A stretch of DNA of 64,000 nt from Candidatus Nanoarchaeia archaeon (GCA_035290865.1 DATDTM010000047.1:14127-78126), one strand, 5' to 3'. Counted from the stretch's first letter, positions 5,526 through 28,784 are shown. Program-made: numbers and translations. Notes: generated by a model from the letters alone, not told the origin.

Positions 5526-5545
5526 TTATAGGTTTATTTTCAAGC

Positions 5546-8896: not shown

Positions 8897-8901
8897 TTTT
8901 T

Positions 8902-15351: not shown

Positions 15352-15978
15352 ATGAAAAAACTAATAGTTTTGTTAAGTTTGCTGGTGATAGCTTTGTTTG
15401 TAGTAAGTTGTGCACCTAAAGAAGCAGGAGAAGAGAGTGCTGAAGAAGGGGCTTTGGCTGGTCAGGCAATAAAACTTACTCCGATTATCAAACCAAAATG
15501 TTCTGATTTAATTAGTCCTGCCGGTTCTTTTGTATTGAATTTAGAGTACGGAAAAGAACAAATGATGGGAAGTCCGCAGACAATATTAGATGAGTTAAAT
15601 GAAAATGCAGAATCATTTAATAATGCTTGTGGCGGGGCTTATTATTTGCGTTCTTGTTCAAGTTTAGAGAATTTAGCTGCAAAATACTTGAACGGAGAAG
15701 GGAAGAAAGGAATGCCAATAGTAGTGGTAAATATTATCCACTTAACCGAAAATGATAAAAGTGCAGTATCCAACTTGTTGGTAGAACTGGGTTATGAAAA
15801 ATGGGAATACTCTTTTTTTGAAGGATATGATAAAAATAAGCCAGTGTGGCGGTGGAATCAAGGTCTGAAGAATGCTTGGTTCAGCGGAGATATTTTCATA
15901 GACATTATTGGCCCTTTAGCTCTAGTAGATTATTCTTTAGTCAAATCTTACTACGACAAATATCCACCGACCGAGTAA
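15352..15978 (+). CDS. secreted protein with lipobox-like signal peptide (VVSC)
   Basis: MKKLIVLLSLLVIALFVVSCAP: signal peptide ending in [LVI][ASTVI][GAS]C. Confidence 0.5.
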   Translation: MKKLIVLLSLLVIALFVVSCAPKEAGEESAEEGALAGQAIKLTPIIKPKCSDLISPAGSFVLNLEYGKEQMMGSPQTILDELNENAESFNNACGGAYYLRSCSSLENLAAKYLNGEGKKGMPIVVVNIIHLTENDKSAVSNLLVELGYEKWEYSFFEGYDKNKPVWRWNQGLKNAWFSGDIFIDIIGPLALVDYSLVKSYYDKYPPTE

Positions 15979-16063
15979 AAGTAAAACTTTTCTTTTTTTC
16001 TTCTTTTCTTAGTTCAAACCCACCAAAAAGCTTATATAACTTAATTCTTTTGTTAAATAACCA

Positions 16064-17053
16064 ATGAAAAAGAGTGTGAATAACTTAAAAGAGAGTAAGT
16101 TCAACTCCAGATTAATAATTCTAACTTTAATCATTATCTCTCTTCTGCTCTTAACTTCTTGCGGCCAGAGAGTTCCCGGCGGAGAAGAACCTATTGATAC
16201 CGCTACTGCCCTAAAGATGGTCCAGACTGGAACTCAGGGGATAGAATTATATCTTCTCCCAAACCAACCTCCCGCCTACATCTATGATCAAAACGAATTA
16301 GTGGCTTTAGTCGAGGTAAGAAATCGAGGCAATTACGACCTAGACCCAGAATACTGTTTTGTCCAAGTTACCGGCTTTGATACTAATATCATTAAAGGAG
16401 GATTAGATATTCCTAAATCTTGTGCAGAAAATATTGGCACTTTACAGGGAAAGAATGTTTATAATGTAGAAGGAAGTACTAATCTATTGGAATTCCGTTC
16501 TCCCAGCGTTACCTTACCTTTAAACGTTTTCGATTATAATCCTACTTTAAATTTCGTGGCTTGTTATAATTATCATACTAAAGCTAATCCTCAGGTCTGT
16601 GTGGATCCTTTATTCTATCAAGTTACTGCTGAACAAAAAACTTGTATTCCCCAAAACGTGGGCATGGCCGGCGGCCAGGGCGCACCGGTAGGAGTAAGTT
16701 ATGTGGGAGTAGACATGATCGGAGATGCAGCTGTTTTTGAGATTAATGTGGTCAATTATGGTCAGGGCAGAGTGCTTAGTCCCTATTCCGATATCCAAAA
16801 CTGCGGAAAAGCCTCTTTAGAATATACTGATTTAGATAAGGTTGGATTTAATGTCCAATTATCCGGCGGAAACTTGATTGATTGCAAACCCATGGACAAA
16901 TTCGTGCGCTTGACTAATAATAATGGCAAGATCATCTGTAGGTTTAGCATCCCAGTAACCTCCGCTTTTGAAACTCCTTTGATGATAGATTTGGATTATA
17001 ATTATATAGAATCTACCCAGAAACAGATCCAAATAGTTAAGACTCCCCAGTAA
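16064..17053 (+). CDS. secreted lipoprotein-like protein, paralog family 1
   Basis: LLLLTSCGQ lipobox; after the signal peptide, similar to the 17961 and 45525 products (GIELYLLPNQPPAYIYDQNELVALVEVRNRGNYDL vs GLQLSFLENAPPEKMYPNSEFKLIVKLDNQAAYDL). Confidence 0.55.
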   Translation: MKKSVNNLKESKFNSRLIILTLIIISLLLLTSCGQRVPGGEEPIDTATALKMVQTGTQGIELYLLPNQPPAYIYDQNELVALVEVRNRGNYDLDPEYCFVQVTGFDTNIIKGGLDIPKSCAENIGTLQGKNVYNVEGSTNLLEFRSPSVTLPLNVFDYNPTLNFVACYNYHTKANPQVCVDPLFYQVTAEQKTCIPQNVGMAGGQGAPVGVSYVGVDMIGDAAVFEINVVNYGQGRVLSPYSDIQNCGKASLEYTDLDKVGFNVQLSGGNLIDCKPMDKFVRLTNNNGKIICRFSIPVTSAFETPLMIDLDYNYIESTQKQIQIVKTPQ

Positions 17054-17144
17054 AACTAAATTCGCCAGGCTGTAAATCTTTGCCCAAAAGTAATCACTAA
17101 AAAAGCGAAATTCTTATAACTAACTACTTAAAATTAGTTCCTAA

Positions 17145-17774
17145 ATGGTTCAGGCCTTAGAATGGAAAGTAGAATCTCCGCACGAGAGAGCTCAACACCA
17201 TCTTAGAAGAGGTATAGCCTGTCATCCTGCACTCCAAAAAAGATATTCCTGTGAATTAGGAGAAGGCAAGACAGTATTTTATGATCTTTGGGATAATGGA
17301 TTGGGAGATAGAATAACAGCCTATGCCCGCTCTATTCCAGATCAAGACCCATTACAATTAAAGACCAGAGACCAATCACAATTAATTACTTATATGGCTT
17401 ATGGCAGGCTTGCTCCGGGAATGATTCATGATAATCAGCCGCCTTTCTCGCATCGCCAGCCTCAAGAGAAAGATGATCGAGCCGAACTGCTTTCTTTTAT
17501 TGCAGAAGAGATGGAAGGACTACTTTCGGTTTATGAAAGCGCATCTGAAAGTCATAGCGTAGAACCAAAACCAGGAATTGCTGCTAAATTAAAAGTTTAT
17601 GCTTCCCTAGTAGATCCCAGAGAGATTGCTACTCTTAAAGAAATTGTCCGCAGAAGTGAACATTTCCACGCGGGTCGTTTCACTGATGAAGATCGCAGAC
17701 TATTTTGGGGCTATGATAATCGCTGGGAATGGAATCAGGTGCCTTTAACTTTTCCGGAAGTGAATCTTCGCTAA
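17145..17774 (+). CDS. hypothetical cytoplasmic protein of atypical composition
   Basis: His/Arg/Pro/Trp-rich ORF that looks GC-richer than its neighbours; sits between two lipoprotein paralogs. Confidence 0.4.
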   Translation: MVQALEWKVESPHERAQHHLRRGIACHPALQKRYSCELGEGKTVFYDLWDNGLGDRITAYARSIPDQDPLQLKTRDQSQLITYMAYGRLAPGMIHDNQPPFSHRQPQEKDDRAELLSFIAEEMEGLLSVYESASESHSVEPKPGIAAKLKVYASLVDPREIATLKEIVRRSEHFHAGRFTDEDRRLFWGYDNRWEWNQVPLTFPEVNLR

Positions 17775-17960
17775 GATTATCTTATCTATTTCCGTACCAG
17801 TAATTCCTCCCCTTTTTGAACTATACCCCAGTAAACTTTAAATATTCCTCTTCTTTCTCTAGATTAAGTTAAGTCTAAATAAAGAAATATTAATATACTC
17901 CTAATCTTTATTTACTTAAAATAATCGATTTAAACAATCTAAAAGAAGAGGTAGATAAAA

Positions 17961-18860
17961 ATGAAACAAATAATTTTTCTAGTAATATTACTTGCCGGTT
18001 TGCTCTTGCTTACTGCCTGTGAAGGACAGAAACAACCAACAGGCAAAGGTGCTTATATTGGCGGAACCCAGGGCGTGCTGGCTAATTTCGAACCTTTTGG
18101 AGTAGAAGAAGCCGGAGTGTATAGTTTATTTGATACCGAAACCTTCCCTTTAGAAGTGACTGTGACTAATAAAGGAGAATACGAATTAAAAGCTGGAGAT
18201 GTTACTGTAAAACTAATGGGCCCATCTAAAGAAGAGATGAGCGGAATCTCTTCTTGGGATTTAAAAAATACCGGATCCATCGAACCCATCTCAGACTTAT
18301 TAGTTAATGGTGGAGAAGAGACCATCTCTTTCGCCAGCGATGCTAAATATACTAAACCCGTAGAAGGCATCTTAACCAGAGAATGGTTTGCTAATGTCGA
18401 ATATAAATACCAAACTTACCTTATTATTCCTGAAGTTTGCTTGAAAGAAGACTTAAAAGATACCCGAGTCTGTACTGTTGAAGAATCTAAATCTTACTTT
18501 GTTTCCGGAGCTCCCCTTACTGTTACCAGTGTAGAAGAAAGTACTGCTGGTAAGGGCATCATGGCCTTAAAGATTAAAATCAAGAATGTTGCGGGAGGAA
18601 AAGCCACTAAGATCGGAGAAGAGTTTGGGATCCAGGAAAAATTAGCCTATACCATTGACGATGCTGCCTGGGAATGTAAACAAGGTGGTTCAATTAATGC
18701 CGCTAAACTGATTCTTGGAGAAGCAGAGATTGTCTGTAAATTAAAAGAAGCTCTGGCTGAAAAGACTTTGTCTACTAAGCAAGTAAAGTTAACCTTTGAT
18801 TATGCCTATAGAGATTTGATCCAAGAAAAGTTAAACATCAAAGAAAGCGCGAAAGATTAG
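17961..18860 (+). CDS. secreted lipoprotein-like protein, paralog family 1
   Basis: LLLTACEGQ lipobox; similar to the 16064 and 45525 products. Confidence 0.55.
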   Translation: MKQIIFLVILLAGLLLLTACEGQKQPTGKGAYIGGTQGVLANFEPFGVEEAGVYSLFDTETFPLEVTVTNKGEYELKAGDVTVKLMGPSKEEMSGISSWDLKNTGSIEPISDLLVNGGEETISFASDAKYTKPVEGILTREWFANVEYKYQTYLIIPEVCLKEDLKDTRVCTVEESKSYFVSGAPLTVTSVEESTAGKGIMALKIKIKNVAGGKATKIGEEFGIQEKLAYTIDDAAWECKQGGSINAAKLILGEAEIVCKLKEALAEKTLSTKQVKLTFDYAYRDLIQEKLNIKESAKD

Positions 18861-18862
18861 GG

Positions 18863-20386
18863 ATGAAAATTAAACCGCTTTTCTTTTTTTTTGTTTTTAT
18901 TCTTGTTTTTAGTTTATTAATTATTTCTACTGGTTGTAACGAAACCTCTACCGGCCAGGCTAGTTTTTCTTTTACTCCCGCTTGTTATGATACCGATGGG
19001 GGAATAAAGTTAGAAGAAAGGGGAGCAGTTAAATTAAGTGCTGAAAAAGATAATTATTATCAAGATACCTGTATTGATTCTTCTACTTTAGTAGAATATT
19101 ATTGTAATAAAGGGGACCTGAATGTTAGTTTTAAAAAATGTTCAGAAGGAACTGTTTGTAACCAGGACGCCTGTATCAATCCAAAAAACACTTTCATCTG
19201 CGGGGATGGAATCTGCCAAGGCCAGCGAGAAATTAATTCCGGCTGTGCTTATGACTGCGGCTGGCCCTGTGTTGGAAAGTATTGCAACCAAGAGATCAAT
19301 GTTTATTGCGCTTGTCAGGAATCTTCTTTTGCGCTACTTAAAGAGATAACCCCCTGTAAAGCTAAAGTGACTTGTAATAATTGCAGCCAGCAAGAGCCGC
19401 TTCTTGACGATTTTTATGATCTGCAGACCCAGATCTACGAATGCCTAGCAGATTATTTCCAATTTCAGCCTCTAAGAATTCCTTATTTGATTGTTTATAA
19501 TCCCGCAGAAGAAAAATGTACTGACCCTAGCGGATGTTCTGGCTATGCCACTGGACACTCAGATCCTATCGGGTTATCTTTTATACCTCTGCCCGGAAAT
19601 CGAAGTTATGACCAGAATCAACCAACTTTACCTAGCCAATTAGTCCCTGAAAAACACGAAACCACCCATTATTTTCTTAATCACATGCTCCATTCTGTCC
19701 CTGACTGGTTCAAAGAAGCCATCTCTATCCAAACCGAAGAAAGAATTAAATGTCATCCTCAGGAAAACCCGAAAGGAGACGCTTATCTTTTAGAGACAGA
19801 AGTGGACTTACTTCACCCAGAATTAGGGATAAACCTAGCGAATGGAATGACTCTTAATGAAGAATTCTACCAGAAATGGAAAAATGGCGGAGCTGATCTT
19901 CCTGAAACTGATAAAAATAATTATTACATCCAGGCTACACTTTGGTTGATCGGATTGAAATTAGATTATTCCTGCACCGAAGATTGCATCCAAAAAATAC
20001 TCCAGGAACTGCGCCAGCAGGTAGTTGAAGAATGCAAGATCTCCCAAGAAAAATGTGGTTTAGCCAGCTGGTTTGTTTTTGAGAATAAAGACAAATTCTG
20101 TTCATTAGATAATCCACCCAGAACCGGCCCCACCGGGGCCATAAATTTTGATCCTAATCCAAAAAGTTCTTCTTCCAGTTCTAAACAAACTATCGTTTCA
20201 AAATTAAATCTTAAAAATAATTTTAAGAAAAAGTCTGGTCAGGTTGTGGCTACCGAAGCACCAAAATATTGGACTTATTGGGCCAACGACCAAACCATCA
20301 TTGATAATTCCAAGATTAAATCCGCTACAGATAAAATAGTGGGTAAAGATACTCAAGAATTGTTCGATAAGGTGGGGTTAAAATAA
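18863..20386 (+). CDS. secreted Cys-rich protein with an HExxH zinc-metallopeptidase-like motif
   Basis: Signal peptide with STGC lipobox; cysteine-rich repeats of CxxDGxCxxxExxxxCxxDC type (CGDGICQGQREINSGCAYDC); HETTHYFLNHMLH (HExxH...H) near 19655-19690. Confidence 0.5.
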   Translation: MKIKPLFFFFVFILVFSLLIISTGCNETSTGQASFSFTPACYDTDGGIKLEERGAVKLSAEKDNYYQDTCIDSSTLVEYYCNKGDLNVSFKKCSEGTVCNQDACINPKNTFICGDGICQGQREINSGCAYDCGWPCVGKYCNQEINVYCACQESSFALLKEITPCKAKVTCNNCSQQEPLLDDFYDLQTQIYECLADYFQFQPLRIPYLIVYNPAEEKCTDPSGCSGYATGHSDPIGLSFIPLPGNRSYDQNQPTLPSQLVPEKHETTHYFLNHMLHSVPDWFKEAISIQTEERIKCHPQENPKGDAYLLETEVDLLHPELGINLANGMTLNEEFYQKWKNGGADLPETDKNNYYIQATLWLIGLKLDYSCTEDCIQKILQELRQQVVEECKISQEKCGLASWFVFENKDKFCSLDNPPRTGPTGAINFDPNPKSSSSSSKQTIVSKLNLKNNFKKKSGQVVATEAPKYWTYWANDQTIIDNSKIKSATDKIVGKDTQELFDKVGLK

Positions 20387-20398
20387 TTAATTTAGGGT

Positions 20399-23300
20399 TT
20401 ATCTCTTCCCCACCATCATCACAAAAGCCAGAAAACTTTCTAATTGTAAATACTCGTCCGAACCTTCTACCATTCGGAACTCCACCTCCCCGCATTTATC
20501 TACTAATTCTACTTTCTTCCGATCCTCTAATTCTAAATTCCAGATCTCTTTCTGGATCTGCTTGATGATATCTAATCCCGATAATCCATAATCTAACATC
20601 AGATCTAACAATTTCTTTCTAGAATCTAAGAAACTTCCTTTTACTGCTAAAGCCAGTACTTCTTTAACCTCTTTGGGCTTGGCTACCGAAGCCATGGAAT
20701 AGACCAGTTCGGGAGTGATCTCTTTCTGTAGGATTGCGCAGCTCTGCAGGATATTCTCTAATCTGCGGCAGTCCCCATCGCAGACTTCAAACAAAGCTTT
20801 CTGCGCTTCTGCCCCGATCTGCAGTTTCTCTTCATTGGCAATACCTTTGATCACTTTATAGATCTCTTCTTCTGCTAAGGGCTTGAACCTGAATACTGCA
20901 CATCTGCTTTGTATAGGATCGATAATTTTCGAAGAATAGTTGCAACTTAAAATAAATCTACAGGTCTTGGTATAATTCTCCATCGTTCTTCTCAAAGCCT
21001 GCTGCGCTTCTTTGGTTAACGCATCACTTTCATCCAGATAAATTAATTTAAATGGTGCATCCCCTAATGCTTTAGTTCTGGCAAAATCTTTTACCTTCAC
21101 TCTGACGATATCTATCCCCCTCTCATCCGAGGCATTTAACTCCAGAACATTCTGCCTCCAGTTTTCACCGAACAATTGTTTGGCGATGACTAAAGACAGG
21201 GTCGTATTGTGCAAAGTAAGACCCCCTCCATGTCCACCAATGAAATTATGGGTACCTACAACATTTAAATCATAAACATAATCTCCTTTAACATTTTCCA
21301 CTGATTTAATGGTATCCCAATAAATCTCAGCCTTGGCCAAATACTCGAGCAGCTCGAGACTACTCAACAGTTCCTGAGAAAATATTCGTTCCTCTAATAT
21401 TTGTTTAACAACAATAAAAACTGAATTTAACTTGCATACCGCCTGTAGAGAAAGCCCGTCATTATTGAAGTAATAGTTTATCGATGCTGCCGATTCATCC
21501 ATTCTCCTTCCGATTTCAGCGTAAGAGATAGAGAATAGCTGGATCGCCCTAACTATATTCTGGCGTGCAACTAGTTGTTCCCGAAGATGAGAACTAAGCT
21601 CACCAGCCCCGTGAACCTGCAAGTTTTTCATTACCTTTAATATTCTTATTAAGTTGGCAAGGGTAGGTTCTCGCTTTCCCTCGTAGTATTCTTTAAGTCT
21701 ATCGTAGCGTATTCCAGATAAGGCCCCTATATGTGTACGAGAAGACGGAGCGCAGAGTTGTGAGAAAACAGCTCCTACTTCATTTTCTACGGTGGGTGGA
21801 AAGCGTTCACAAAGCGTTATGGTTTCTAATCCCGTTTTAATTCTGCTTCGGGCCAGATCGCAGATTACCTGATATAACTTTTGAACTCTAATCCTGCTCC
21901 CTTTTTCCCGCTCAAAGATATGCTCAACAAAAACCGCTTCGTTTAATTCTTTCTGCTCGATGCCCAATAATTTTATGGTCTCTCCAAGATGCTCTTTACT
22001 AATCGTCATTACATCTACATTGGTGTTGCTTGCCCGCTGGCAAACAATGGTCTTAACTCTGGGATTTACTTTCTCTTGGAATCGTAGAATCTCAGCAATC
22101 GAATTTATCGTAAGGTAATATTGTCGTTTTCTATTTTTTATATGAGGATGAATTCCCCAGCGCAGTAATAGGTAGGGTAATCCTTCAATCATTGTTTTGC
22201 TGGTACTGGAAAGCTCAATTATATTTTTATAACAGGAACCATCACATTCGAAGTATCCTCGTATAAATGCGGCCACATACTCATCTGGGGCAGTAAATAA
22301 TTCTGAAGGTACAGTAATCATGTCTGCTTTAGGTTTGTGAAGAGGAATAGAGTAAAAATGTTCCAGTAAAGCTACTAATACCCTGCATTTCATAATTTCT
22401 ATATAGGGGACTCCTTTTCGTTCTTTTTCTTGGAAACGCAGCTCAGAGCCAAATAGTAGCTTGCTCAATTCCACGAATCGTGAGCGGAGAAAATTATTGC
22501 AGTTATAAAAACGAATTGACGAAGTACGAACATGCCCATCGCCAAAAACTAAACCCAGCCATTCATAAAAATCTGGCACAGGCGTTCTAAAATGAAATAT
22601 GGTAGTTGAAGGCGAATGGAATTTTCCTTTCCATAGCAACTTCTCTACTAAAGAAAAGTCAGTAACCAAAGCGTAGGGAATAATAGTAGAATCAACTTGT
22701 TTTTTAGTTAAAGAGTATTGTCGTGGCTTTTTCAAAGAGGAAGATAGTATCTTCTCTTTTATCAATGAAGCAATTGCCCAGTTAACTACTTTATGTTTTT
22801 CTCCAATCTTAACTGAAATTTCTGCAGCCGTGGCTCCCTCTACTGGCTGGAGATACTCCAACACTTTGGATTTAACTCTAACATATAGGGGGTGGGGTGG
22901 AAGAGAGACACTTTTTTTTAACACTGCCCAAAAACAGGGGTGCTTCTCCCAGCATAGTTCCCAACGGCTAAGATGAGGACGAATTACTAAAGGTGAAGCA
23001 ACCAGATTATTTGGACGAAGCTCTTCTGCTTTAACCCAAGTGGGTACGCCTTCTTTTAATACTAAAAATGGATGTTCTGGAGTTGTAGTAACCCGTTTTC
23101 CTGCAGAAGTGCGTACACATAATAACTTTCCAGCATATTCTCGGTGAAAGTAAGCTATAGATGCAGGGGAAATCTCACCCATAGCATTAAGTGTCATAAC
23201 TTTGGTTAACTTTTCATTAAAGCAATCTTTTATTGACTTTATAGCGCCAGTATCAGTTATGATGGGAGTATCTCCCGTAACGCACTTTCCCACTCCCGCC

Positions 23301-23437
23301 GGCCCGGAAAAAAGCAGGTGAGGCATGCTTTTGGTTTCCACAAAAGCCCTAATTTTCTGGACGATCTCTTTCTGGCCTTTAACCTCATCAAAAGTTTGGG
23401 GCCGATACTTTTCAGTCCAGATAGAAGATTCAGTCAT
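20399..23437 (-). CDS. rfcS: replication factor C small subunit with one large intein in the P-loop
   Basis: N-extein WTEKYRPQTFDEVKGQ...LLFSGPAGVGK, then intein starting CVTGDTPII and ending THNFIGGHGGGLTLHN, then extein TTLSLVIAKQ...LELNASDERGID...IYLDESD...SRC (Walker A GVGK|TT, SRC motif). Exteins total ~319 aa. Confidence 0.85.
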   Translation of the reverse strand: MTESSIWTEKYRPQTFDEVKGQKEIVQKIRAFVETKSMPHLLFSGPAGVGKCVTGDTPIITDTGAIKSIKDCFNEKLTKVMTLNAMGEISPASIAYFHREYAGKLLCVRTSAGKRVTTTPEHPFLVLKEGVPTWVKAEELRPNNLVASPLVIRPHLSRWELCWEKHPCFWAVLKKSVSLPPHPLYVRVKSKVLEYLQPVEGATAAEISVKIGEKHKVVNWAIASLIKEKILSSSLKKPRQYSLTKKQVDSTIIPYALVTDFSLVEKLLWKGKFHSPSTTIFHFRTPVPDFYEWLGLVFGDGHVRTSSIRFYNCNNFLRSRFVELSKLLFGSELRFQEKERKGVPYIEIMKCRVLVALLEHFYSIPLHKPKADMITVPSELFTAPDEYVAAFIRGYFECDGSCYKNIIELSSTSKTMIEGLPYLLLRWGIHPHIKNRKRQYYLTINSIAEILRFQEKVNPRVKTIVCQRASNTNVDVMTISKEHLGETIKLLGIEQKELNEAVFVEHIFEREKGSRIRVQKLYQVICDLARSRIKTGLETITLCERFPPTVENEVGAVFSQLCAPSSRTHIGALSGIRYDRLKEYYEGKREPTLANLIRILKVMKNLQVHGAGELSSHLREQLVARQNIVRAIQLFSISYAEIGRRMDESAASINYYFNNDGLSLQAVCKLNSVFIVVKQILEERIFSQELLSSLELLEYLAKAEIYWDTIKSVENVKGDYVYDLNVVGTHNFIGGHGGGLTLHNTTLSLVIAKQLFGENWRQNVLELNASDERGIDIVRVKVKDFARTKALGDAPFKLIYLDESDALTKEAQQALRRTMENYTKTCRFILSCNYSSKIIDPIQSRCAVFRFKPLAEEEIYKVIKGIANEEKLQIGAEAQKALFEVCDGDCRRLENILQSCAILQKEITPELVYSMASVAKPKEVKEVLALAVKGSFLDSRKKLLDLMLDYGLSGLDIIKQIQKEIWNLELEDRKKVELVDKCGEVEFRMVEGSDEYLQLESFLAFVMMVGKR
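21206..23284 (-). mobile_element. intein (~693 aa) with LAGLIDADG homing-endonuclease domain inserted in the RFC Walker A motif
   Basis: N-terminal Cys after GVGK, C-terminal His-Asn followed by Thr; LAGLIDADG-like blocks LGLVFGDGHV and FIRGYFECDGS; reverse complement of 21203-21220 reads LTLHNT. Confidence 0.75.
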
Positions 23438-23518
23438 AATTATCTTTCCTTTAAACTTCTTTATAAGTTTTATCTATTTAGAGAAGATATGATCTCAGAA
23501 AGAATATCTAATTAAAAA

Positions 23519-23758
23519 TCAGCTTAAAACAAACAATAATACTCTCTTCACCCAAATAATTAGTTCCTCTGAAGATAACCCGAAGATCATTACCAATATA
23601 AGAAGAATTAAAAGCAGATAAAATAACACTTTCAGCATTTCTGGTAGGAACTTCATAAAGATAACTATTACTAAAGCCAGGATCAATACTCCTAACACAG
23701 AAAAAAGTTCCATTTTACGTATTAAGAAGAAAAATAGTTTATATACATTTCGAAACAA
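23519..23758 (-). CDS. small hydrophobic protein, hypothetical
   Basis: 79-aa ORF with two predicted TM helices; may be spurious. Confidence 0.3.
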   Translation of the reverse strand: MFRNVYKLFFFLIRKMELFSVLGVLILALVIVIFMKFLPEMLKVLFYLLLILLILVMIFGLSSEELIIWVKRVLLFVLS

Positions 23759-23850
23759 TTAAGCGTATTCACCAGCAGGTCTTACCCAAAGAGAAAAATA
23801 TAAGATTAAAATTGTTTTGGTGATTTCTGGAGGATAATCAACTTCGTGAG

Positions 23851-24306
23851 TTATAATCCTTTCAGGCTAGATAAAAATTCTAAATAATTCTTATTTAAGT
23901 CTGGATCCATGACTGTAGCACTTTTAATCCTTTTTTGCCATGCCAAGATAAGGGTGCGGATAATTTTTCTTGCTTTTTCTTCTCCGATTGCGCCACAACC
24001 ATTATACAAACATTTGATACTGTGAATGGAGGCTAGAATATGATGCGGATCACTGCAGATTATTCTTGGAAACCATTTAAAGTATCCTGCAAGCATACCA
24101 ATAAGATAAGACCAATTTGATAAATCTAAATTATGCGGATAGGTTAATTTACTTGGAAATCCCATCACCTTACTCCCAGCGACTGCTCTCAATTCCGCAT
24201 AACCTCTTAAGAATTCTTTTTTGAAAAGCGCCATATTTTTGACTGTCAACATCGCTTCCGCTTCAGCTATCGCTTTTTTTATTTCTTCATCCCCAAAAAG
24301 TCCCAT
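23851..24306 (-). CDS. hypothetical protein
   Basis: 151-aa ORF. Confidence 0.4.
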   Translation of the reverse strand: MGLFGDEEIKKAIAEAEAMLTVKNMALFKKEFLRGYAELRAVAGSKVMGFPSKLTYPHNLDLSNWSYLIGMLAGYFKWFPRIICSDPHHILASIHSIKCLYNGCGAIGEEKARKIIRTLILAWQKRIKSATVMDPDLNKNYLEFLSSLKGL

Positions 24307-24433
24307 TTTTCATCCTCTTTTATTGAATATAATCAATTAAAAACCTATCCCGCAACATAAAACAGTTCCGTCTCTTCAATATCTCCAGCTACGAAATTAT
24401 AATTTCTTAGGTCTGAAAGATATTTATCTAGGC

Positions 24434-24721
24434 TCATGCGGATGGCTCTTCTCCTTCTGCATTTCCTGAAGGCACTGCATTCTTAGAGATGATTAAAACA
24501 TCGCCCATGGCCTTGACCAGCTGATGGGGAACGATAACTCCTTTGGCACTACCGATAACCCTGCTCAAGAAAGAATTCTTAGTAGCTTTAATCTTCCAAC
24601 CGGAAACTTTATTGCTTTGGATGATGCAATCCTCAATATCACCAAAATACTCCCCACTATCCGTAAATACCCTTAAATCATAAGCTTCCGACACTTTCCT
24701 CATTTTTAACATAATCATCAC
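24434..24721 (-). CDS. PRC-barrel domain protein
   Basis: ~95 aa; DLRVFTDSGEYFGDIEDCIIQSNKVSGWKI matches the archaeal PRC-barrel pattern. Confidence 0.5.
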   Translation of the reverse strand: MMIMLKMRKVSEAYDLRVFTDSGEYFGDIEDCIIQSNKVSGWKIKATKNSFLSRVIGSAKGVIVPHQLVKAMGDVLIISKNAVPSGNAEGEEPSA

Positions 24722-24788
24722 CTCATTAATTCAATTGCATTTTTAAAATAACTTAAGTTTAAATACTTTTCTGTGTTTTATAATAGGA

Positions 24789-25487
24789 ATGGTAGACAGT
24801 ATAGATCGAATCAAAATCATCGGCACTTCCCATATCGCTAAACAAAGCATAAATGAGATTAAAAAAGCGGTTGCTTCCTGGAAGCCGGATCTTATCGCTT
24901 TAGAGCTGGATTCTGCCCGCGCCCAGGCTATTCTGCAGGATGAACGTTCTAAAATCAGCTGGAAAACTCTTTTTCAGGTCGGGGTCAAAGGCTATCTTTT
25001 CGCTAAAATCGGCCAGTTTGTCCAACAAAAATTAGGCAAGATGGTGGGAGTAAGCCCAGGCTCAGAGATGAAAGCAGGATTAGAGATTGCCAGAGAAAAT
25101 AAGCTCCAGCTAGCTTTAATCGATCAGCCCATCCAGATTACCTTAAAACGCTTCTCCCAAGCTCTGACTTGGAAAGAAAAGTTCCGTTTCTGCTCAGATC
25201 TGCTTCAGGGATTGCTCTTTCCCAACCGTCAGATCAAAAAATTTGGTTTAGAGAATTTTGACCTGCGCAAAGTGCCTGAAAAAGCAGTCATCGAAAAAAT
25301 GATTTTACAATTAGAACAACGCTATCCTAACGTCTATAAAGTTTTGGTAGAGGAAAGAAATCGTTATATGCTAAAGAAAATAGTTGCCCTTCTGCGTAAT
25401 CACCCAGAGAAAAGAATAATGGTTATTGTTGGGGCAGGACACGAAAAAGGATTGCAGCAACTGTTATTGAAAGTGGATTTGGTTTAA
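24789..25487 (+). CDS. TraB/PrgY-family protein
   Basis: N-terminal IIGTSHIAKQS (GTxHVS motif of the TraB family); ~230 aa. Confidence 0.6.
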   Translation: MVDSIDRIKIIGTSHIAKQSINEIKKAVASWKPDLIALELDSARAQAILQDERSKISWKTLFQVGVKGYLFAKIGQFVQQKLGKMVGVSPGSEMKAGLEIARENKLQLALIDQPIQITLKRFSQALTWKEKFRFCSDLLQGLLFPNRQIKKFGLENFDLRKVPEKAVIEKMILQLEQRYPNVYKVLVEERNRYMLKKIVALLRNHPEKRIMVIVGAGHEKGLQQLLLKVDLV

Positions 25488-25582
25488 GAATAGGGCCTAG
25501 GGAAAGAAAAAGAATCGCTGTTATTAAAGAGTAATAAATATTATAGAAATCTTTATAAAATAACTTACTTTCTGGAATGATC

Positions 25583-25948
25583 GGTAGTAGTGGCAGTTAG
25601 CTGAGGGTATTTATTGCCCAGGAAAGTCCGCCCACCAAAAACAGGCCACTCCTAGGAAGGAGAGGGAGAAATTCCCTGGCTCTGGCTTCAGAAACGACAC
25701 GTCCTGCAGAATGGGATGATATGGCGAAGTTCCTTGCGAAAGGAATGAGTTAACCTATGGACGTCTCTGCAGGGAACGATGAAACGGCGAACCCCTTGTT
25801 GAGATGTAAATTTCAAAGGGCTCTTAGAGATAATAGCCCTGCCGGTGCAAGTGCAGTTCTGCACGCTCAGTCGAATGCTAACCTAAGCCATCGCAGTCAC
25901 AGGTTGACTGTTTGGGCTTAACCAAAGGCGGCTTATGTCACTCTACCC
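25583..25948 (+). ncRNA. rnpB: RNase P RNA, archaeal type (candidate)
   Basis: ORF-free 550-bp gap containing the universal P4 motif cAGGAAAGUCCGccc near the 5' end and acAGgttgactgtttGGGCUUAacc near the 3' end (compare E. coli ACAGAAcCCGGCUUA); ends ggtag(t)agtggca at 25583 and tgtcactctacc at 25936 can form P1; followed by a T8 run. Confidence 0.55.
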
Positions 25949-25949
25949 A

Positions 25950-25957
25950 TTTTTTTT
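25950..25957 (+). terminator. oligo-T tract (T8) directly after the RNase P RNA candidate
   Basis: Archaeal terminators are U-runs; located at the end of the proposed P1 helix. Confidence 0.35.
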
Positions 25958-26044
25958 AGAAAAAAATGGAGTAAAAATCCGTAAGGTAGGAAATAAAAAA
26001 AATAACTACGATTACTGGCGAAGATGTTTTAGGAGGAAGACAAA

Positions 26045-26455
26045 ATGGCTAAAATATTTTATGTTGAAAAAAACCCAATTCACAGAGAACTTACCGCTAA
26101 TCATCTCGAACGCAGAGCGCACGAGGTGGTTAAATTTATTCCTGAATACTATTTTCACGCCCGACCAGAAGGTGATGGAAGTGAATTTCTTAATAGCATA
26201 GATGATTTTGTTGCCAGGCTAAGAACAGATAATCCAGAGATATTAATATTAAATCCTGAATCTTTCCGGGAGATAAATTCCGCCAGAGATTATATCGTCG
26301 CAGTAATAGATTCTGGATACGCTGGAAGAATAGTTTTAACCTACACTGACACGAACGATTTGGTGAGAGAATTTGAAGAACATTCTCCAAAAGTACGACC
26401 CCTTATTAAACCATTTTTCCTATCTGAATTAGACCAAATCCTCGCTTCGGATTAA
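26045..26455 (+). CDS. degenerate receiver-like (pseudo-receiver) domain protein
   Basis: KIFYVEKNPIHRELTANHL parallels KILVVDDNPINRELL with DD replaced by EK; PEILILNPES parallels PDLILLDINMP with the phospho-acceptor Asp replaced by Asn; C-terminal IKPFFLSELDQIL is a KP-type ending. Confidence 0.45.
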   Translation: MAKIFYVEKNPIHRELTANHLERRAHEVVKFIPEYYFHARPEGDGSEFLNSIDDFVARLRTDNPEILILNPESFREINSARDYIVAVIDSGYAGRIVLTYTDTNDLVREFEEHSPKVRPLIKPFFLSELDQILASD

Positions 26456-26514
26456 ATTATTAAAAGTCAAAAATAACGCAAACCTTATAAAACCAAAATC
26501 ATTTTAAGATTAAA

Positions 26515-26688
26515 ATGAGCCAAGATAATAAAATCAGGATGCCTATGGGCCAGGGAGGATTAACCCGTTACTTTGACGAAGTCAAGTCTAAAATCGAATT
26601 CTCGCCGGCAGCAGTAGTTGTTTTAAGCATCGCCATTATGATCATCATCATTCTGTTGCACTACTTCGGAAAAAGCTGGTTAAGCTAA
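26515..26688 (+). CDS. secG: preprotein translocase Sec61-beta subunit; 57 aa, so absent from the 60-aa ORF track
   Basis: MSQDNKIRMPMGQGGLTRYFDEVKSKIEFSPAAVVVLSIAIMIIIILLHYFGKSWLS: GL(T/I)RYFDE motif plus a single C-terminal TM helix is the Sec61beta/Sbh1 architecture. Confidence 0.6.
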   Translation: MSQDNKIRMPMGQGGLTRYFDEVKSKIEFSPAAVVVLSIAIMIIIILLHYFGKSWLS

Positions 26689-26694
26689 ACAAAA

Positions 26695-27042
26695 ATGTTC
26701 CCCGGAATCAATCCCAGAAAAATGCAGCAGATGATGCGCCAGATGGGCATCCAGCAGCAGGAGATCAATGCTACTGAAGTCATCATTAAAACTGCGAATA
26801 AAGAATTAGTTATCACCCACCCTTCCGTTGCTAAAGTCAATATGATGGGCCAGGAAACTTTCCAGATTTCCGGGGAGATTACTGAACGGGAATTATCTAC
26901 CGTATCTTCAGCTCCAGACCTTTCTGAAGAAGATGTCAAAACTGTCATGGAACAGACCGGAGCAGACCAGAAATCCGCCAAAAAAGCTTTGCAAGAAGCT
27001 GACGGAGATCTAGCTCAAGCCATTCTTAACCTTAAAAAATAA
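26695..27042 (+). CDS. nac: nascent polypeptide-associated complex alpha subunit (NAC domain plus UBA domain)
   Basis: PRKMQQMMRQMG...EINATEVIIKT...NMMGQETFQISG (NAC domain); C-terminal EEDVKTVMEQTGADQKSAKKALQEADGDLAQAI (UBA). Confidence 0.8.
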   Translation: MFPGINPRKMQQMMRQMGIQQQEINATEVIIKTANKELVITHPSVAKVNMMGQETFQISGEITERELSTVSSAPDLSEEDVKTVMEQTGADQKSAKKALQEADGDLAQAILNLKK

Positions 27043-27057
27043 TTTCTTTTCTAAAAA

Positions 27058-27336
27058 ATGAAATATAAAACCATTCGTTCAGCTGGAGAAGATGAAAGTC
27101 CAGCTCGCATTTATCTAGCTCCTCGCCAGGATGGAACTATTTTTCCCGTAAAAGTCAGAGTTTTTGGACAACGTATAGAAGCTGCTCCGGCCTTAAATCA
27201 ACCTGTTTTTAGCTATCGCAAACCTTTTCGAGAATCTCCTCTTGATCCTCCTCCCCCGAATTTGGACGGATTAATGGAACAAACCGCCAGAGAATATATC
27301 CGCTTGCTGGATGAATTGAATGATCCCCTGCCCTAA
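27058..27336 (+). CDS. hypothetical protein
   Basis: ORF only; Pro-rich C-terminus. Confidence 0.35.
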   Translation: MKYKTIRSAGEDESPARIYLAPRQDGTIFPVKVRVFGQRIEAAPALNQPVFSYRKPFRESPLDPPPPNLDGLMEQTAREYIRLLDELNDPLP

Positions 27337-27384
27337 AATCTCTCTAGAATTAACCAAATATTTTTATATTCATTCTACTTCTTA

Positions 27385-27906
27385 TTGGTTATGGATCATC
27401 CTCAAGAATTTCTTAGAGCAAAAGAGAATGCTCTCCAGAAATACGAAGGAGCCAGACATCTTCTCAATGTTACCTACCGCACCGTCAATGATGCTAATCT
27501 CTTAATTGGAATTTTAAACAATATGGTCAGTTCCATGGAATCTTCTATTGAAGCCATACTCGCTTATGAAAGAGTTTTAAAATTAGTCCCCGCTTACGGA
27601 ACTAACGCCCTAAGTAGATTAAACACTTTTAGCCATCATTCTCTGCGCAGGAACAATATCCCTCCAGAATACGTTCGCATCTTGCAGGATATGAAAGAAG
27701 TTCTCGAACTGCATAAAAAAAGCCCCAGCACCTTCCAACGTGGGAATAAATTAGTCATCTGCGACCAGCGCTATGAATTAAAAGTACTTTCTATGCAGGA
27801 TTTTCAGGATTATTTAGGCAAAACTAAACAATTTTTAGAGCTGATGCAAAAAGCAGTCAGCCGTTACGGCCAGGATTTAGACCAGCATACCAATGAATCC
27901 ATCTGA
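27385..27906 (+). CDS. hypothetical protein
   Basis: ORF only. Confidence 0.4.
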   Translation: MVMDHPQEFLRAKENALQKYEGARHLLNVTYRTVNDANLLIGILNNMVSSMESSIEAILAYERVLKLVPAYGTNALSRLNTFSHHSLRRNNIPPEYVRILQDMKEVLELHKKSPSTFQRGNKLVICDQRYELKVLSMQDFQDYLGKTKQFLELMQKAVSRYGQDLDQHTNESI

Positions 27907-27954
27907 ACTGTCAACAAAAACATTTAAAACCTAATTAGATATTCTATATTATAG

Positions 27955-28326
27955 ATGAGCCTATTAGACAAATTAAAGTTTTGGAAAAAAGAGGATGAAT
28001 TCGATTTTGATTTCGATAAGAAAGTAGACCATGAAATGGGCAAGACTGGCACTCAGGATTTAGGGTTAGGCCATCCCGGAGAAAAATCTTTCTTTGATGA
28101 ACATACTGAAACCAAGCCTTTCGGCTCAGAAGAACCCTCTTCCGGACTTGCTGCCTTTCAGGCTGCCCGTACAGGTGCTTCCACCAGCAATGGAGGAAAC
28201 CGAGACTTAGAATTAATCAATAGTAAATTAGATACCATTAAAGCCATCTTAAATTCGCTGGATCAAAGAATGGCTAGCTTAGAACGTTCTTCTGCTGGCG
28301 GAAAGAAAGAAGAGAAATTATGGTAA
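27955..28326 (+). CDS. hypothetical protein with disordered acidic N-terminus and C-terminal coiled coil
   Basis: ORF only; low-complexity. Confidence 0.35.
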   Translation: MSLLDKLKFWKKEDEFDFDFDKKVDHEMGKTGTQDLGLGHPGEKSFFDEHTETKPFGSEEPSSGLAAFQAARTGASTSNGGNRDLELINSKLDTIKAILNSLDQRMASLERSSAGGKKEEKLW

Positions 28327-28784
28327 AAGCCGAATCTTTGCTGGAGAGATCGATGAAACTCAAAAAAGAATTGATTTTCTCTTTGATTGCTTTCTTAGTG
28401 GTTCTTTCCGACCAATTAACTAAATATTTTATTCTAAAAAACAATCCCCAGATAAACTTAAATGTCCTAGAGATAACCTTAATCAAAAATACCGGGGCCG
28501 GATTTGGTATCCTCCAAGATCAGACTTTTTTGCTGGGGATAGTTTCGCTAATTGTCGCTTTACTGATTATAATTTATTATCATAAAATTCCAAAAGATAG
28601 TTTTTCCCAGCTATTATTCGCTTTATTTCTGGGCGGAGTTATCGGCAATCTGATCGATCGGCTATTTCGGGGCTATGTCATCGATTTCATTAATTTCGGT
28701 TTCTGGCCGGCATTTAACCTTGCTGATGCAGTTTTGACGGTTTCGATAATTGGATTGATGGTCTATTATTGGAGGAAAGATTAA
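28320..28784 (+). CDS. lspA: lipoprotein signal peptidase (signal peptidase II) homolog
   Basis: Four TM helices; IKNTGAGFGIL (N-T-G-A-A-F box) and FNLADAVLTVS (the conserved N..D box) match SPase II family signatures. Confidence 0.7.
   Translation: MVKAESLLERSMKLKKELIFSLIAFLVVLSDQLTKYFILKNNPQINLNVLEITLIKNTGAGFGILQDQTFLLGIVSLIVALLIIIYYHKIPKDSFSQLLFALFLGGVIGNLIDRLFRGYVIDFINFGFWPAFNLADAVLTVSIIGLMVYYWRKD

What the first reader, a model, noticed from the sequence alone, without database searches (positions are those of the whole stretch)
15352..28784. Bacterial-type lipoprotein system in an archaeon: an lspA homolog plus at least seven lipobox-bearing secreted proteins
Seen in sequence: 28320-28784 encodes a 4-TM protein with the SPase II boxes IKNTGAGFGIL and FNLADAVLTV. 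At least seven secreted proteins have canonical lipobox endings in their signal peptides: VVSC (15352), LTSC (16064), LTAC (17961), STGC (18863), LLSC (45525), LAGC (58315) and IIGC (59765). Three of them (16064, 17961, 45525) are clear paralogs. Established knowledge: Lgt/Lsp/Lnt homologs are generally reported absent from archaea, and how archaeal lipobox proteins are processed is unresolved. Inference: this lineage may have acquired a bacterial-like lipoprotein maturation step, perhaps by horizontal transfer. No lgt is visible in this window.
Basis: partly seen in the sequence, partly recalled or inferred. Interest (0 to 1): 0.65.

Follow-up and report, generated by a model that had tools for sequence, protein, structure and literature searches.

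The report
Bacterial-type lipoprotein machinery in Woesearchaeota
This archaeal (Woesearchaeota) genome piece carries an intact lipoprotein signal peptidase of the bacterial type and at least seven secreted proteins with the matching cleavage and lipid-attachment motif. Relatives of this organism also carry the partner enzyme Lgt, although specialist papers still say archaea have no homologs of either enzyme.

Summary
Window 28320-28784(+) encodes a true LspA (signal peptidase II). It scores above the curated Pfam and TIGRFAM cut-offs and keeps all 14 columns that are invariant across archaeal and bacterial LspAs, including the Asp-Asp catalytic pair. Its AlphaFold model superposes on solved bacterial LspA structures. 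The gene lies between NAC and aIF1A on a plainly archaeal contig. In 14 of 17 archaeal loci from other genomes it sits next to aIF1A, so it is a resident, vertically inherited gene and not contamination. Seven Sec-type signal peptides in the window end in a canonical lipobox cysteine. For one of these protein families, 132 of 138 distant homologs keep that cysteine. The window has no lgt, but the lineage does: I recovered archaeal contigs with Lgt, one of them with Lgt, LspA and aIF1A together. Every named close homolog of that Lgt comes from Woesearchaeota or Nanoarchaeota. The most likely reading is a complete Lgt-LspA pathway of bacterial origin that is a core feature of Woesearchaeota. Sequence databases already annotate these genes automatically, but papers from 2010, 2025 and 2026 state that no archaeal homologs exist. 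The lipid that gets attached is not known. Bacterial-type GpsA (in the window) and a PlsY-like gene (beside lgt in a relative) point to glycerol-3-phosphate-based lipids.

The parts
28320..28784 (+). lspA: lipoprotein signal peptidase (SPase II, peptidase family A8). 154 aa, or 143 aa from the alternative start at 28353. The catalytic Asp pair is D122/D136 in the 154-aa numbering and D111/D125 in the 143-aa numbering.
   Evidence: PF01252 at 114 bits and TIGR00077 at 104 bits against a cut-off of 74. phmmer hits to PDB 6RYO, 9EMZ and 5DIR at E about 2e-15. 14 invariant columns, including the VIDF and FNLAD aspartates. AF2 pLDDT 90.6 and Foldseek TM 0.78-0.84 to 6RYP/5DIR/6RYO.
27955..28326 (+). 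Conserved 123-aa ORF of unknown function just upstream of lspA. Its stop overlaps the lspA ATG (ATGGTAA), so the two are probably co-transcribed.
   Evidence: Sequence junction read. Homologs lie upstream of lspA in 10 of 17 archaeal loci. No Pfam or NCBIfam match.
15352..15978 (+). Predicted lipoprotein, 208 aa, signal peptide ending VVS|C (Cys20).
16064..17053 (+). Predicted lipoprotein, 329 aa, LTS|C (Cys33). Paralog of 45525.
17961..18860 (+). Predicted lipoprotein, 299 aa, LTA|C (Cys20). Distant paralog of 45525.
18863..20386 (+). Predicted lipoprotein, 507 aa, Cys-rich, STG|C (Cys25).
45525..46433 (-). Predicted lipoprotein, 302 aa, LLS|C (Cys21). It belongs to a large family in which the lipobox Cys is almost universally kept. 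It is the last gene of a cell-surface cluster (45525-60472) that also encodes CARDB, NosD and SpoIID-domain proteins.
   Evidence: 1426 cluster representatives. 132 of 138 with a lipobox Cys. The two named members looked up (of 10) are Woesearchaeota.
58315..59028 (-). Predicted lipoprotein, 237 aa, LAG|C (Cys33). Paralog of 59765.
59765..60472 (-). Predicted lipoprotein, 235 aa, IIG|C (Cys33). Paralog of 58315.
43483..44439 (-). gpsA: bacterial-type NAD(P)H-dependent sn-glycerol-3-phosphate dehydrogenase. This is context, not part of the pathway. It would supply the bacterial-type glycerol backbone and may bear on which lipid is attached.
   Evidence: PF07479 6e-50, PF01210 7e-37, PF20618 6e-20. 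NF000942 at 310 bits against a cut-off of 257.
7298..9798 (-). secD (7298-8896) and secF (8902-9798): Sec translocon accessory proteins. This is context: the export route that the seven Sec-type lipobox precursors would take.
   Evidence: PF02355 hits

Best explanation
The window comes from a Woesearchaeota (DPANN; GTDB Nanoarchaeota) archaeon. It encodes a functional type II (lipoprotein) signal peptidase of bacterial ancestry that is now a resident, vertically inherited gene of the lineage.

Proposed mechanism:
1. Precursors with Lys-rich Sec-type signal peptides ending in [LVI][ASTVI][GAS]-Cys are exported through Sec. SecD/SecF are in the window.
2. An Lgt encoded elsewhere in the genome attaches a glyceryl-lipid to the lipobox cysteine by a thioether bond.
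3. LspA, an aspartyl protease with the dyad D122/D136, cuts just before the modified cysteine. The mature protein is left anchored to the outer face of the membrane by its N-terminal lipid.

At least seven surface proteins in the window, about half of its secreted proteins, are substrates.

Shown here: the identity, intact active site and fold of LspA; the archaeal, syntenic context; conservation of the lipobox; and the presence of a catalytically intact Lgt in Woesearchaeota genomes, once on the same contig as LspA.

Inferred: that this particular genome has lgt; the order of the steps; the enzyme activities; and the nature of the lipid.
For: **LspA identity.** (curated cut-offs passed; PDB LspA hits; 14 invariant residues including both catalytic Asp; model pLDDT 90.6; TM 0.78-0.84 to 6RYP/5DIR/6RYO, probability 1.0).

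**Archaeal host and vertical inheritance.**
- Searches show archaeal informational genes on both sides of lspA.
- One search shows even GC content.
- One search gave 1273 homologs. The 120 listed are 55-100% identical, and every named one is Woesearchaeota or Nanoarchaeota.
- One search gave 17 archaeal loci.
- One search shows aIF1A beside lspA in 14 of 17 loci and broad gene-order conservation with L001, L002 and L005.

**Substrates.**
- seven lipobox precursors.
- the lipobox Cys is kept in 132 of 138 homologs that are at most about 50% identical to each other, and 105 match the strict bacterial consensus.
- the two members that carry a name (of 10 looked up) are Woesearchaeota.

**Lgt in the lineage.**
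- contig L068 carries Lgt (TIGR00544 at 203 bits against 118.9), LspA and aIF1A.
- the 120 listed homologs are 55-100% identical, and all named ones are Woesearchaeota or Nanoarchaeota.
- Lgt sits beside S10, aEF-1alpha, RpoK and exosome genes on a 272-kb contig.
- Lgt and LspA lie 4.3 kb apart on a 97-kb contig.
- Y26, H103, R143, N146, E151, G154, Y235, R239 and E243 of E. coli Lgt are conserved in 59-60 of 60 archaeal Lgts.
- Huang et al. 2021 (PMC8421398), supplementary table, list an lgt orthogroup OG0000180 among 47 Woesearchaeota and 5 Pacearchaeota MAGs. It is numbered between secY (OG0000150) and rpl15 (OG0000190). OrthoFinder numbers families by size, so this implies near-universal presence.
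Against: - lgt is not in this 64-kb window, and it is not within 10 kb of lspA in the 17 archaeal loci from the genome scan. Its presence in this genome is inferred from relatives.
- There is no experimental evidence of lipidation or cleavage in any DPANN archaeon.
- Huang et al. report that Woesearchaeota lack GGGP and DGGGP synthases and may not make their own membrane lipids. The lipid donor for Lgt is therefore unknown.
- An AliA/AliB-type archaeal lipidation enzyme could not be searched for, because I had no sequence or model for it. A hybrid pathway is not excluded.
- The LspA tree is unresolved.
Confidence: 0.8

Rival explanations
1. Hybrid pathway. In this organism LspA cuts precursors that were lipidated by an archaeal-type enzyme (AliA/AliB, arCOG02177/02178) with an archaeol-based lipid, rather than by a bacterial-type Lgt.
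For: No lgt lies in the window or next to lspA in most archaeal loci. PMC12462473 reports arCOG02177 in DPANN 'with some gaps' and notes many predicted lipoproteins in DPANN.
Against: Catalytically intact Lgt is widespread in Woesearchaeota and sits on the same contig as LspA in at least one genome. An lgt orthogroup of near-universal size appears in 52 Woesearchaeota and Pacearchaeota MAGs. No AliA candidate turned up among the window's membrane proteins with Pfam or NCBIfam, although no AliA model was available to me.
Confidence: 0.1
2. LspA works alone, as a lipobox-specific signal peptidase on non-lipidated precursors, or it has been put to some use other than lipoprotein maturation.
For: From my own knowledge, not tested here: some Gram-positive bacteria are reported to process prolipoproteins by Lsp without prior Lgt action. 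No lgt is in the window.
Against: All 14 LspA signature residues are kept. The lipobox Cys is under strong constraint in the substrate family, which is hard to explain without lipidation. Lgt with an intact active site co-occurs in the lineage.
Confidence: 0.06
3. Artefact: the lspA segment is bacterial contamination or a chimeric assembly, or the whole contig is bacterial.
For: The family is overwhelmingly bacterial, and its nearest non-archaeal relatives are Dehalococcoidia, Chloroflexota, Syntrophomonadaceae and Omnitrophota at 46% identity or less.
Against: lspA lies between NAC and aIF1A with no break in GC content. Its start codon overlaps the stop of a conserved upstream ORF of unknown function. 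The lspA-aIF1A arrangement recurs in 14 of 17 independent archaeal assemblies and in several metagenome contigs. The closest homologs are 55-100% identical and all named ones are archaeal.
Confidence: 0.02

Closest known systems
Bacterial lipoprotein signal peptidase LspA (SPase II, MEROPS A8; structures 5DIR from P. aeruginosa and 6RYO/6RYP from S. aureus)
   Same: It hits the same Pfam and TIGRFAM family above the curated cut-offs. It has the same 14 conserved residues, including the Asp dyad. It has the same four-helix membrane fold with a small beta-sheet element (TM 0.78-0.84). The same lipobox motif is present in the putative substrates.
   Different: The host is an archaeon (Woesearchaeota). 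The protein is short, at 143-154 aa. Identity to solved bacterial enzymes is only 32-34%, and 46% or less to any bacterial homolog found. The gene sits among archaeal translation genes (NAC, aIF1A), whereas lgt lies next to lspA in the nearest bacterial loci. The lipid on the substrate is unknown.
Bacterial Lgt-LspA(-Lnt) lipoprotein maturation pathway
   Same: Both of the first two enzymes are present in the lineage, with intact catalytic residues, together with many lipobox proteins.
   Different: I did not look for and did not find an Lnt, Lit or LnsAB homolog. There is no outer membrane or Lol system to sort to. The membrane lipid context may be archaeal, bacterial-like or scavenged. In two Woesearchaeota genomes lgt is preceded by a conserved 256/257-aa multi-TM ORF of unknown function.
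Archaeal AliA/AliB lipoprotein lipidation system of Haloferax volcanii (PMC12462473, PMC13631571)
   Same: It serves the same purpose: anchoring lipobox proteins through a thioether-linked lipid on the conserved Cys. Those authors predict abundant lipoproteins in DPANN.
   Different: AliA/AliB show only marginal resemblance to Lgt, and the archaeal signal peptidase of that system is still unidentified. Here the enzymes are true members of the bacterial Lgt and LspA families. Those papers state that no archaeal Lgt/Lsp homologs are known.

Membership tests
LspA / signal peptidase II (Pfam PF01252, TIGR00077, MEROPS A8) | Whole-protein profile score above the curated family cut-off | tested here: met
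   PF01252 at 114.4 bits against 25. TIGR00077 equivalog at 104 bits against 73.95.
LspA / signal peptidase II (Pfam PF01252, TIGR00077, MEROPS A8) | Catalytic aspartate dyad and the set of strictly conserved residues (D, K, N, G, G, N, R, V, D, F, F, N, A, D) | tested here: met
   Invariant columns D20 K24 N46 G48 G95 N99 R103 V109 D111 F112 F121 N122 A124 D125 in a 52-sequence archaeal and bacterial alignment. The same motifs align to 6RYO and 9EMZ.
LspA / signal peptidase II (Pfam PF01252, TIGR00077, MEROPS A8) | Four-transmembrane-helix fold with an extracytoplasmic beta element, as in solved LspA structures | tested here: met
   AF2 model with pLDDT 90.6 and pTM 0.84, with helices at 5-30, 58-74, 83-106 and 123-142 and strands at 39-46 and 109-115. 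Foldseek PDB top five hits are 6RYP, 5DIR and 6RYO, TM 0.78-0.84, probability 1.0. The next hit has E above 3.
LspA / signal peptidase II (Pfam PF01252, TIGR00077, MEROPS A8) | Lipobox-bearing precursors in the same genome | tested here: met
   Seven in the window. The lipobox Cys is conserved in 132 of 138 distant homologs of one of them.
LspA / signal peptidase II (Pfam PF01252, TIGR00077, MEROPS A8) | Globomycin-sensitive cleavage of lipid-modified prolipoprotein directly before the Cys | not testable with these tools
   This needs biochemistry or genetics.
Complete bacterial-type Lgt-LspA pathway | An Lgt (PF01790/TIGR00544) encoded in the same genome | tested here: inconclusive
   Absent from the 64-kb window, and the rest of the genome is not available. 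Present in the lineage: L068 and L146 carry Lgt and LspA on one archaeal contig. Named homologs are all Woesearchaeota or Nanoarchaeota. An lgt orthogroup is listed in PMC8421398 supplementary data.
Complete bacterial-type Lgt-LspA pathway | Lgt catalytic and essential residues (E. coli Y26, H103, R143, N146, E151, G154, Y235, R239, E243) in the lineage's Lgt | tested here: met
   Conserved in 59-60 of 60 archaeal Lgts. It hit Lgt genes in the bacterial loci, and the expected residue appeared at all eleven positions checked, so the register is right.
Complete bacterial-type Lgt-LspA pathway | Diacylglyceryl (ester-lipid) modification derived from phosphatidylglycerol | not testable with these tools
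   There are only indirect hints: bacterial-type GpsA in the window and a PlsY-like G3P acyltransferase beside lgt in L144.
Archaeal AliA/AliB (arCOG02177/arCOG02178) lipidation system | A homolog of AliA/AliB in the genome | not testable with these tools
   No sequence or profile of arCOG02177 was available. The paper's supplements are not held. The window's unannotated membrane proteins match nothing in Pfam or NCBIfam.

The most novel reading that the evidence does not exclude
Woesearchaeota, a whole order-level archaeal lineage, run a complete bacterial Lgt-LspA pathway as a core function. They do so on membranes that are at least partly bacterial-type, built on sn-glycerol-3-phosphate and acyl chains made or remodelled through GpsA and PlsY-like enzymes, or scavenged from bacterial partners. 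If the membranes are instead archaeal, then bacterial Lgt and LspA have adapted to use archaetidylglycerol/archaeol. In both cases the lineage is a natural crossing of the 'lipid divide' at the level of protein lipidation. It would also supply the missing archaeal lipoprotein signal peptidase for at least one archaeal clade. The secreted SpoIID and GH3 peptidoglycan-acting enzymes in the same window hint at a lifestyle directed at bacteria.
Probability: 0.35. Interest if true: 0.8.

Novelty: new member of a known kind. Interest (0 to 1): 0.6.

Why it matters
[quoted passage not shown] The signal peptidase that matures archaeal lipoproteins is still unidentified. This window, and the related loci I collected, show that one large archaeal lineage has true, catalytically intact LspA and Lgt in stable archaeal genomic contexts, together with many conserved lipobox substrates.

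This makes several questions directly testable:
- Can bacterial-type Lgt and LspA work on archaeal lipids?
- Do Woesearchaeota carry ester or G3P lipids?
- Are DPANN lipoproteins globomycin-sensitive?

It also calls for a correction to phyletic analyses that treat all archaeal lipoproteins as AliA-dependent.

The limits are real. The genes are already auto-annotated in public databases, DPANN are known to hold many genes of bacterial origin, and none of this has been tested experimentally.

Tried and rejected
1. **lgt in or near the locus.** tblastn with E. coli Lgt, an HMM built from 16 Lgts, and hhalign of every multi-TM window ORF against an Lgt alignment found nothing in the window or in the 17 archaeal loci from the genome scan.
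2. **Omnitrophota-type Lgt as a database query** (from L016, where lgt lies next to lspA). The listed hits were all bacterial, so this said nothing about archaea.
3. **Viral contig scan with an Lgt alignment.** No hits.
4. **LspA phylogeny.** NJ with 500 bootstraps on 61 sequences and 153 columns gave 64% support for the core Woesearchaeota clade, 3% for a clade of 16 of the 17 archaeal sequences, and 0% for all 17. The donor and the number of transfers stay unresolved. An earlier Biopython bootstrap run timed out.
5. **AliA/AliB.** I could not obtain a sequence or model. The Nat Commun 2025 supplements are not held.
6. **Literature searches** linking LspA/Lgt with DPANN or Woesearchaeota found no paper that discusses them. 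Supplements of two other DPANN papers held nothing relevant.
7. **Contamination or chimera** was rejected on synteny and composition.
8. **The S51 (PepE-like) peptidase** directly downstream of lspA (28785-29465) is not conserved next to lspA in other genomes, so I did not treat it as part of the system.

Full report
**What is in the sequence.**
The ORF at 28320-28784(+) encodes a 154-aa membrane protein containing LIKNTGAGFGIL and PAFNLADAVLTV. It matches Pfam Peptidase_A8 (PF01252) over its whole length at 114 bits against a gathering score of 25. It matches the NCBIfam/TIGRFAM equivalog model for lspA (TIGR00077) at 104 bits against a cut-off of 73.95. By sequence alone it finds the three solved LspA proteins in the PDB (6RYO, 9EMZ, 5DIR; E about 2e-15).

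In a 52-sequence alignment of archaeal and bacterial homologs, exactly 14 columns are invariant: D20, K24, N46, G48, G95, N99, R103, V109, D111, F112, F121, N122, A124 and D125 in 143-aa numbering. From my knowledge of the LspA structure papers, this is the LspA signature set. It includes the two catalytic aspartates, the D of V-I-D-F and the D of F-N-L-A-D.

An AlphaFold2 model built on 50 homologs is confident (pLDDT 90.6, pTM 0.84) and has four long helices and a small sheet. Foldseek against the PDB returns only LspA structures as significant hits, with TM 0.78-0.84 and probability 1.0.

The likely start is either 28320 or M12 at 28353. Many homologs begin MV[KN], like the long form, while gene callers chose the 143-aa form for the identical protein P0001. 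With the long form, the ATG overlaps the stop of the upstream ORF (ATGGTAA). A TTG-initiated S51 peptidase gene starts directly after the lspA stop.

**The substrates.**
All seven lipobox ORFs are present as described. Each has a short Lys-rich n-region, a hydrophobic core, a lipobox and then Cys:
- VVSC (15352)
- LTSC (16064)
- LTAC (17961)
- STGC (18863)
- LLSC (45525)
- LAGC (58315)
- IIGC (59765)

Each Cys is followed by a Gly/Ser/Glu/Pro-rich stretch typical of lipoprotein tethers. None has a twin-arginine motif, so they look Sec-dependent, and SecD/SecF are encoded at 7298-9798.

About 16 window proteins have a single N-terminal signal-type segment, so roughly half of the exported proteins are lipobox proteins. 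The rest have SPase I-like ends or, for 62750(-), what looks like a pilin-type end. Cysteine makes up 1.2% of residues, so this is far beyond chance.

Paralogy is real but remote: 16064 with 45525 at E 1e-16, 17961 with 45525 at E 1e-6, and 58315 with 59765 at E 1e-20.

The strongest evidence that the motif matters comes from an exhaustive HMMER search with the 45525 product. It found 1426 cluster representatives. Of the best 150, 138 have an N-terminal hydrophobic segment, and 132 of those carry a lipobox-like motif ending in Cys. 105 match the strict bacterial consensus [LVI][ASTVI][GAS]C. Most of the exceptions are truncated gene calls that still show ...GC or ...AC near their first residues. 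These proteins are at most about 50% identical to one another, and the rest of the signal peptide varies freely. I looked up 10 members by name. Two carried a name, and both are from Candidatus Woesearchaeota.

**Whose genome this is.**
The contig carries these archaeal genes:
- Trm1
- aIF5B
- SecDF
- RFC small subunit with an intein
- NAC
- aIF1A
- Cbf5 with an intein
- ribosomal protein S3Ae

GC content is even. lspA lies between NAC (26695-27042) and aIF1A (30425-30742).

The database search with LspA returned 1273 homologs. The 120 listed are 55-100% identical, and every one that carries a name is 'signal peptidase II [Candidatus Woesearchaeota archaeon]' or '[Nanoarchaeota archaeon]'.

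A scan of one genome per GTDB species gave 63 loci. Seventeen are archaeal and the remainder are bacterial at 46% identity or less. Several of the archaeal MAGs carry the title 'uncultured Methanosarcinales'. Their housekeeping genes are 55-70% identical to the window's and share its gene order, so I treat them as Woesearchaeota-like with a wrong label.

In 14 of the 17 archaeal loci aIF1A lies beside lspA. In 10, the 123-aa upstream ORF is conserved. In 8, a membrane protein with a C-terminal sunset-like motif lies between lspA and aIF1A. L001, L002 and L005 share the window's gene order over many kilobases. This rules out contamination and shows long vertical inheritance within the lineage.

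A distance tree could not resolve more than that. Bootstrap support was 64% for the core clade, 3% for a clade of 16 of the 17 archaeal LspAs, and 0% for all 17.

**The missing partner, Lgt.**
The window has no Lgt, and neither do the 17 archaeal loci within 10 kb of lspA. In contrast, the nearest bacterial loci (Syntrophomonadaceae, Omnitrophota, Ratteibacteria) have lgt immediately downstream of lspA. A first database query with an Omnitrophota Lgt returned only bacterial proteins.

Two lines of evidence then showed that the lineage has Lgt.

The first is from the literature. The supplementary tables of Huang et al. 2021 (PMC8421398) list an OrthoFinder family OG0000180 from 47 Woesearchaeota and 5 Pacearchaeota MAGs, annotated lgt by eggNOG, Pfam PF01790, TIGR00544 and K13292. 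Its number falls between secY (OG0000150) and rpl15 (OG0000190). OrthoFinder numbers families by decreasing size (my knowledge of the program), so the family is about as universal as those genes. The main text never mentions it.

The second is from my own searches. A metagenome scan with the archaeal LspA alignment gave contig L068, which carries:
- Lgt at 158-928 (TIGR00544 at 203 bits against a cut-off of 118.9)
- LspA at 5181-5660 (TIGR00077 at 127 bits)
- the same sunset-type membrane protein
- aIF1A

These are shown. With that Lgt as query, the 120 listed hits were 55-100% identical, and every named hit is Woesearchaeota or Nanoarchaeota.

On a 272-kb NCBI Woesearchaeota contig, Lgt sits beside ribosomal protein S10, aEF-1alpha, RpoK and the exosome genes. 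On a 97-kb contig, Lgt and LspA are 4.3 kb apart, with aIF1A and an A-type ATPase subunit nearby.

The E. coli Lgt residues reported as essential or important (Y26, H103, R143, N146, E151, G154, Y235, R239, E243; my knowledge of the Lgt literature) are conserved in 59-60 of 60 archaeal Lgts.

**How it most likely works.**
Taken together, the best explanation is a complete Lgt-LspA lipoprotein maturation route of bacterial origin, fixed in Woesearchaeota. The steps are Sec export, thioether lipidation of the lipobox Cys by Lgt, cleavage by LspA directly before the modified Cys, and a mature surface protein held on the membrane by its N-terminal lipid. The window supplies the LspA half and at least seven substrates. 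Several of these lie in a large surface-protein cluster (45525-60472) with CARDB, NosD and SpoIID-domain proteins.

The nature of the lipid is open. Huang et al. report that Woesearchaeota lack GGGP and DGGGP synthases and may not make their own membrane lipids. Castelle et al. 2021 note bacterial G3P dehydrogenase and fatty-acid genes in some Woesearchaeota. The window itself encodes a bacterial-type GpsA, and a PlsY-like G3P acyltransferase lies next to lgt in L144. These are hints, not proof, that the donor could be a G3P-based lipid.

**Comparison with what is known, and novelty.**
The protein is a member of the LspA family on every feature I could test. What is unusual is the host domain.

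[quoted passage not shown] This appears in Storf et al. 2010 (PMC2945643), in the AliA/AliB paper of 2025 (PMC12462473), and in its 2026 follow-up (PMC13631571). I found no paper in the library that links LspA or Lgt with DPANN.

On the other hand, NCBI and JGI pipelines already name these proteins correctly, one supplementary table lists the lgt family, and DPANN are well known for holding genes of bacterial origin. So this is a new, or rather unrecognised, member of a known kind, not a new kind of system.

Its value is that it corrects a standing statement, offers a candidate for the unidentified archaeal lipoprotein signal peptidase in one clade, and gives a natural test of whether bacterial lipoprotein enzymes can work across the lipid divide.

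**Verdict.**
- Confidence in a functional Lgt-LspA pathway is 0.8.
- The main residual doubts are whether this particular genome has lgt, and which lipid is attached.
- Interest is 0.6.

Noticed in passing
window 43483-44439 (-): Bacterial-type NAD(P)H-dependent sn-glycerol-3-phosphate dehydrogenase (GpsA), in an archaeon. It scores above the NCBIfam subfamily cut-off and includes the 'bacterial GPD C-terminal' domain. A glutaredoxin gene lies next to it at 43202-43468.
   Followed up: partly
L144 6774-7232 (-) and 7416-8186 (+); L146 9226-9999 (+): In Woesearchaeota MAGs, lgt is directly preceded by a conserved 256/257-aa multi-TM ORF with no Pfam match. The two copies are 34% identical between genomes (E 1e-37). 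In one genome a PlsY-like G3P acyltransferase (PF02660, 97 bits) lies just upstream. These may be further parts of the lipid or lipoprotein system.
   Followed up: partly
window 27955-28326 (+): 123-aa ORF with an acidic N-terminal half and what looks by eye like a coiled-coil C-terminal region (not computed). It has no family match. Its stop overlaps the lspA start, and it is conserved upstream of lspA in 10 of 17 archaeal loci.
   Followed up: partly
window 29648-30310 (-): 220-aa protein with four predicted TM segments and a C-terminal Cys/His motif that weakly matches the 'sunset' domain (NF051437, E 0.002). It is conserved between lspA and aIF1A in 8 of 17 archaeal loci from the genome scan, and also in L068 and L146.
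   Followed up: partly
window 41651-42793 (-), 54381-58334 (-), 59029-59796 (-): Secreted proteins with peptidoglycan-related domains in an archaeon: a GH3 (NagZ-like) hydrolase and two SpoIID-domain proteins. This suggests interaction with, or feeding on, bacterial cell walls.
   Followed up: no
window 45525-60472 (-): Long same-strand cluster of surface proteins. It comprises three lipoproteins, a NosD-like beta-helix protein (639 aa), and two giant CARDB/Big_7 proteins of 2013 and 1317 aa. GC content is slightly lower, at 0.33-0.34, over 46-54 kb.
   Followed up: no
window 20399-23437 (-) and 30836-33298 (+): Two intein-containing genes, each with a LAGLIDADG homing endonuclease domain: RFC small subunit (1012 aa) and Cbf5/TruB pseudouridine synthase (820 aa).
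   Followed up: no
window 62750-63946 (-): 398-aa protein whose N-terminus (MNQSKRGQAAAGAAILLVIIAALLVGF...) looks like an archaeal class III (type IV pilin-like) signal peptide. The neighbouring 594-aa multi-TM protein at 60880-62664 has no family match.
   Followed up: no
L001, L004-L007, L009, L017, L018 (genome contigs titles): Several third-party MAGs titled 'uncultured Methanosarcinales archaeon' share gene order with this Woesearchaeota window, and their housekeeping proteins are 55-70% identical to the window's. Their taxonomic label is probably wrong.
   Followed up: partly
window 28785-29465 (+): An S51-family (PepE-like) peptidase gene starts with TTG immediately after the lspA stop codon, with a GGAGG motif upstream. 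It is not conserved next to lspA in other archaeal loci.
   Followed up: partly
L016, L019-L021, L024, L025, L027-L030, L032, L034, L038, L039, L044, L048 and L077, L101, L129: In the bacterial lineages whose LspA is closest to the archaeal one (Syntrophomonadaceae, Omnitrophota, Ratteibacteria and unclassified bacteria), lgt lies immediately downstream of lspA. The Woesearchaeota genes are not adjacent.
   Followed up: yes
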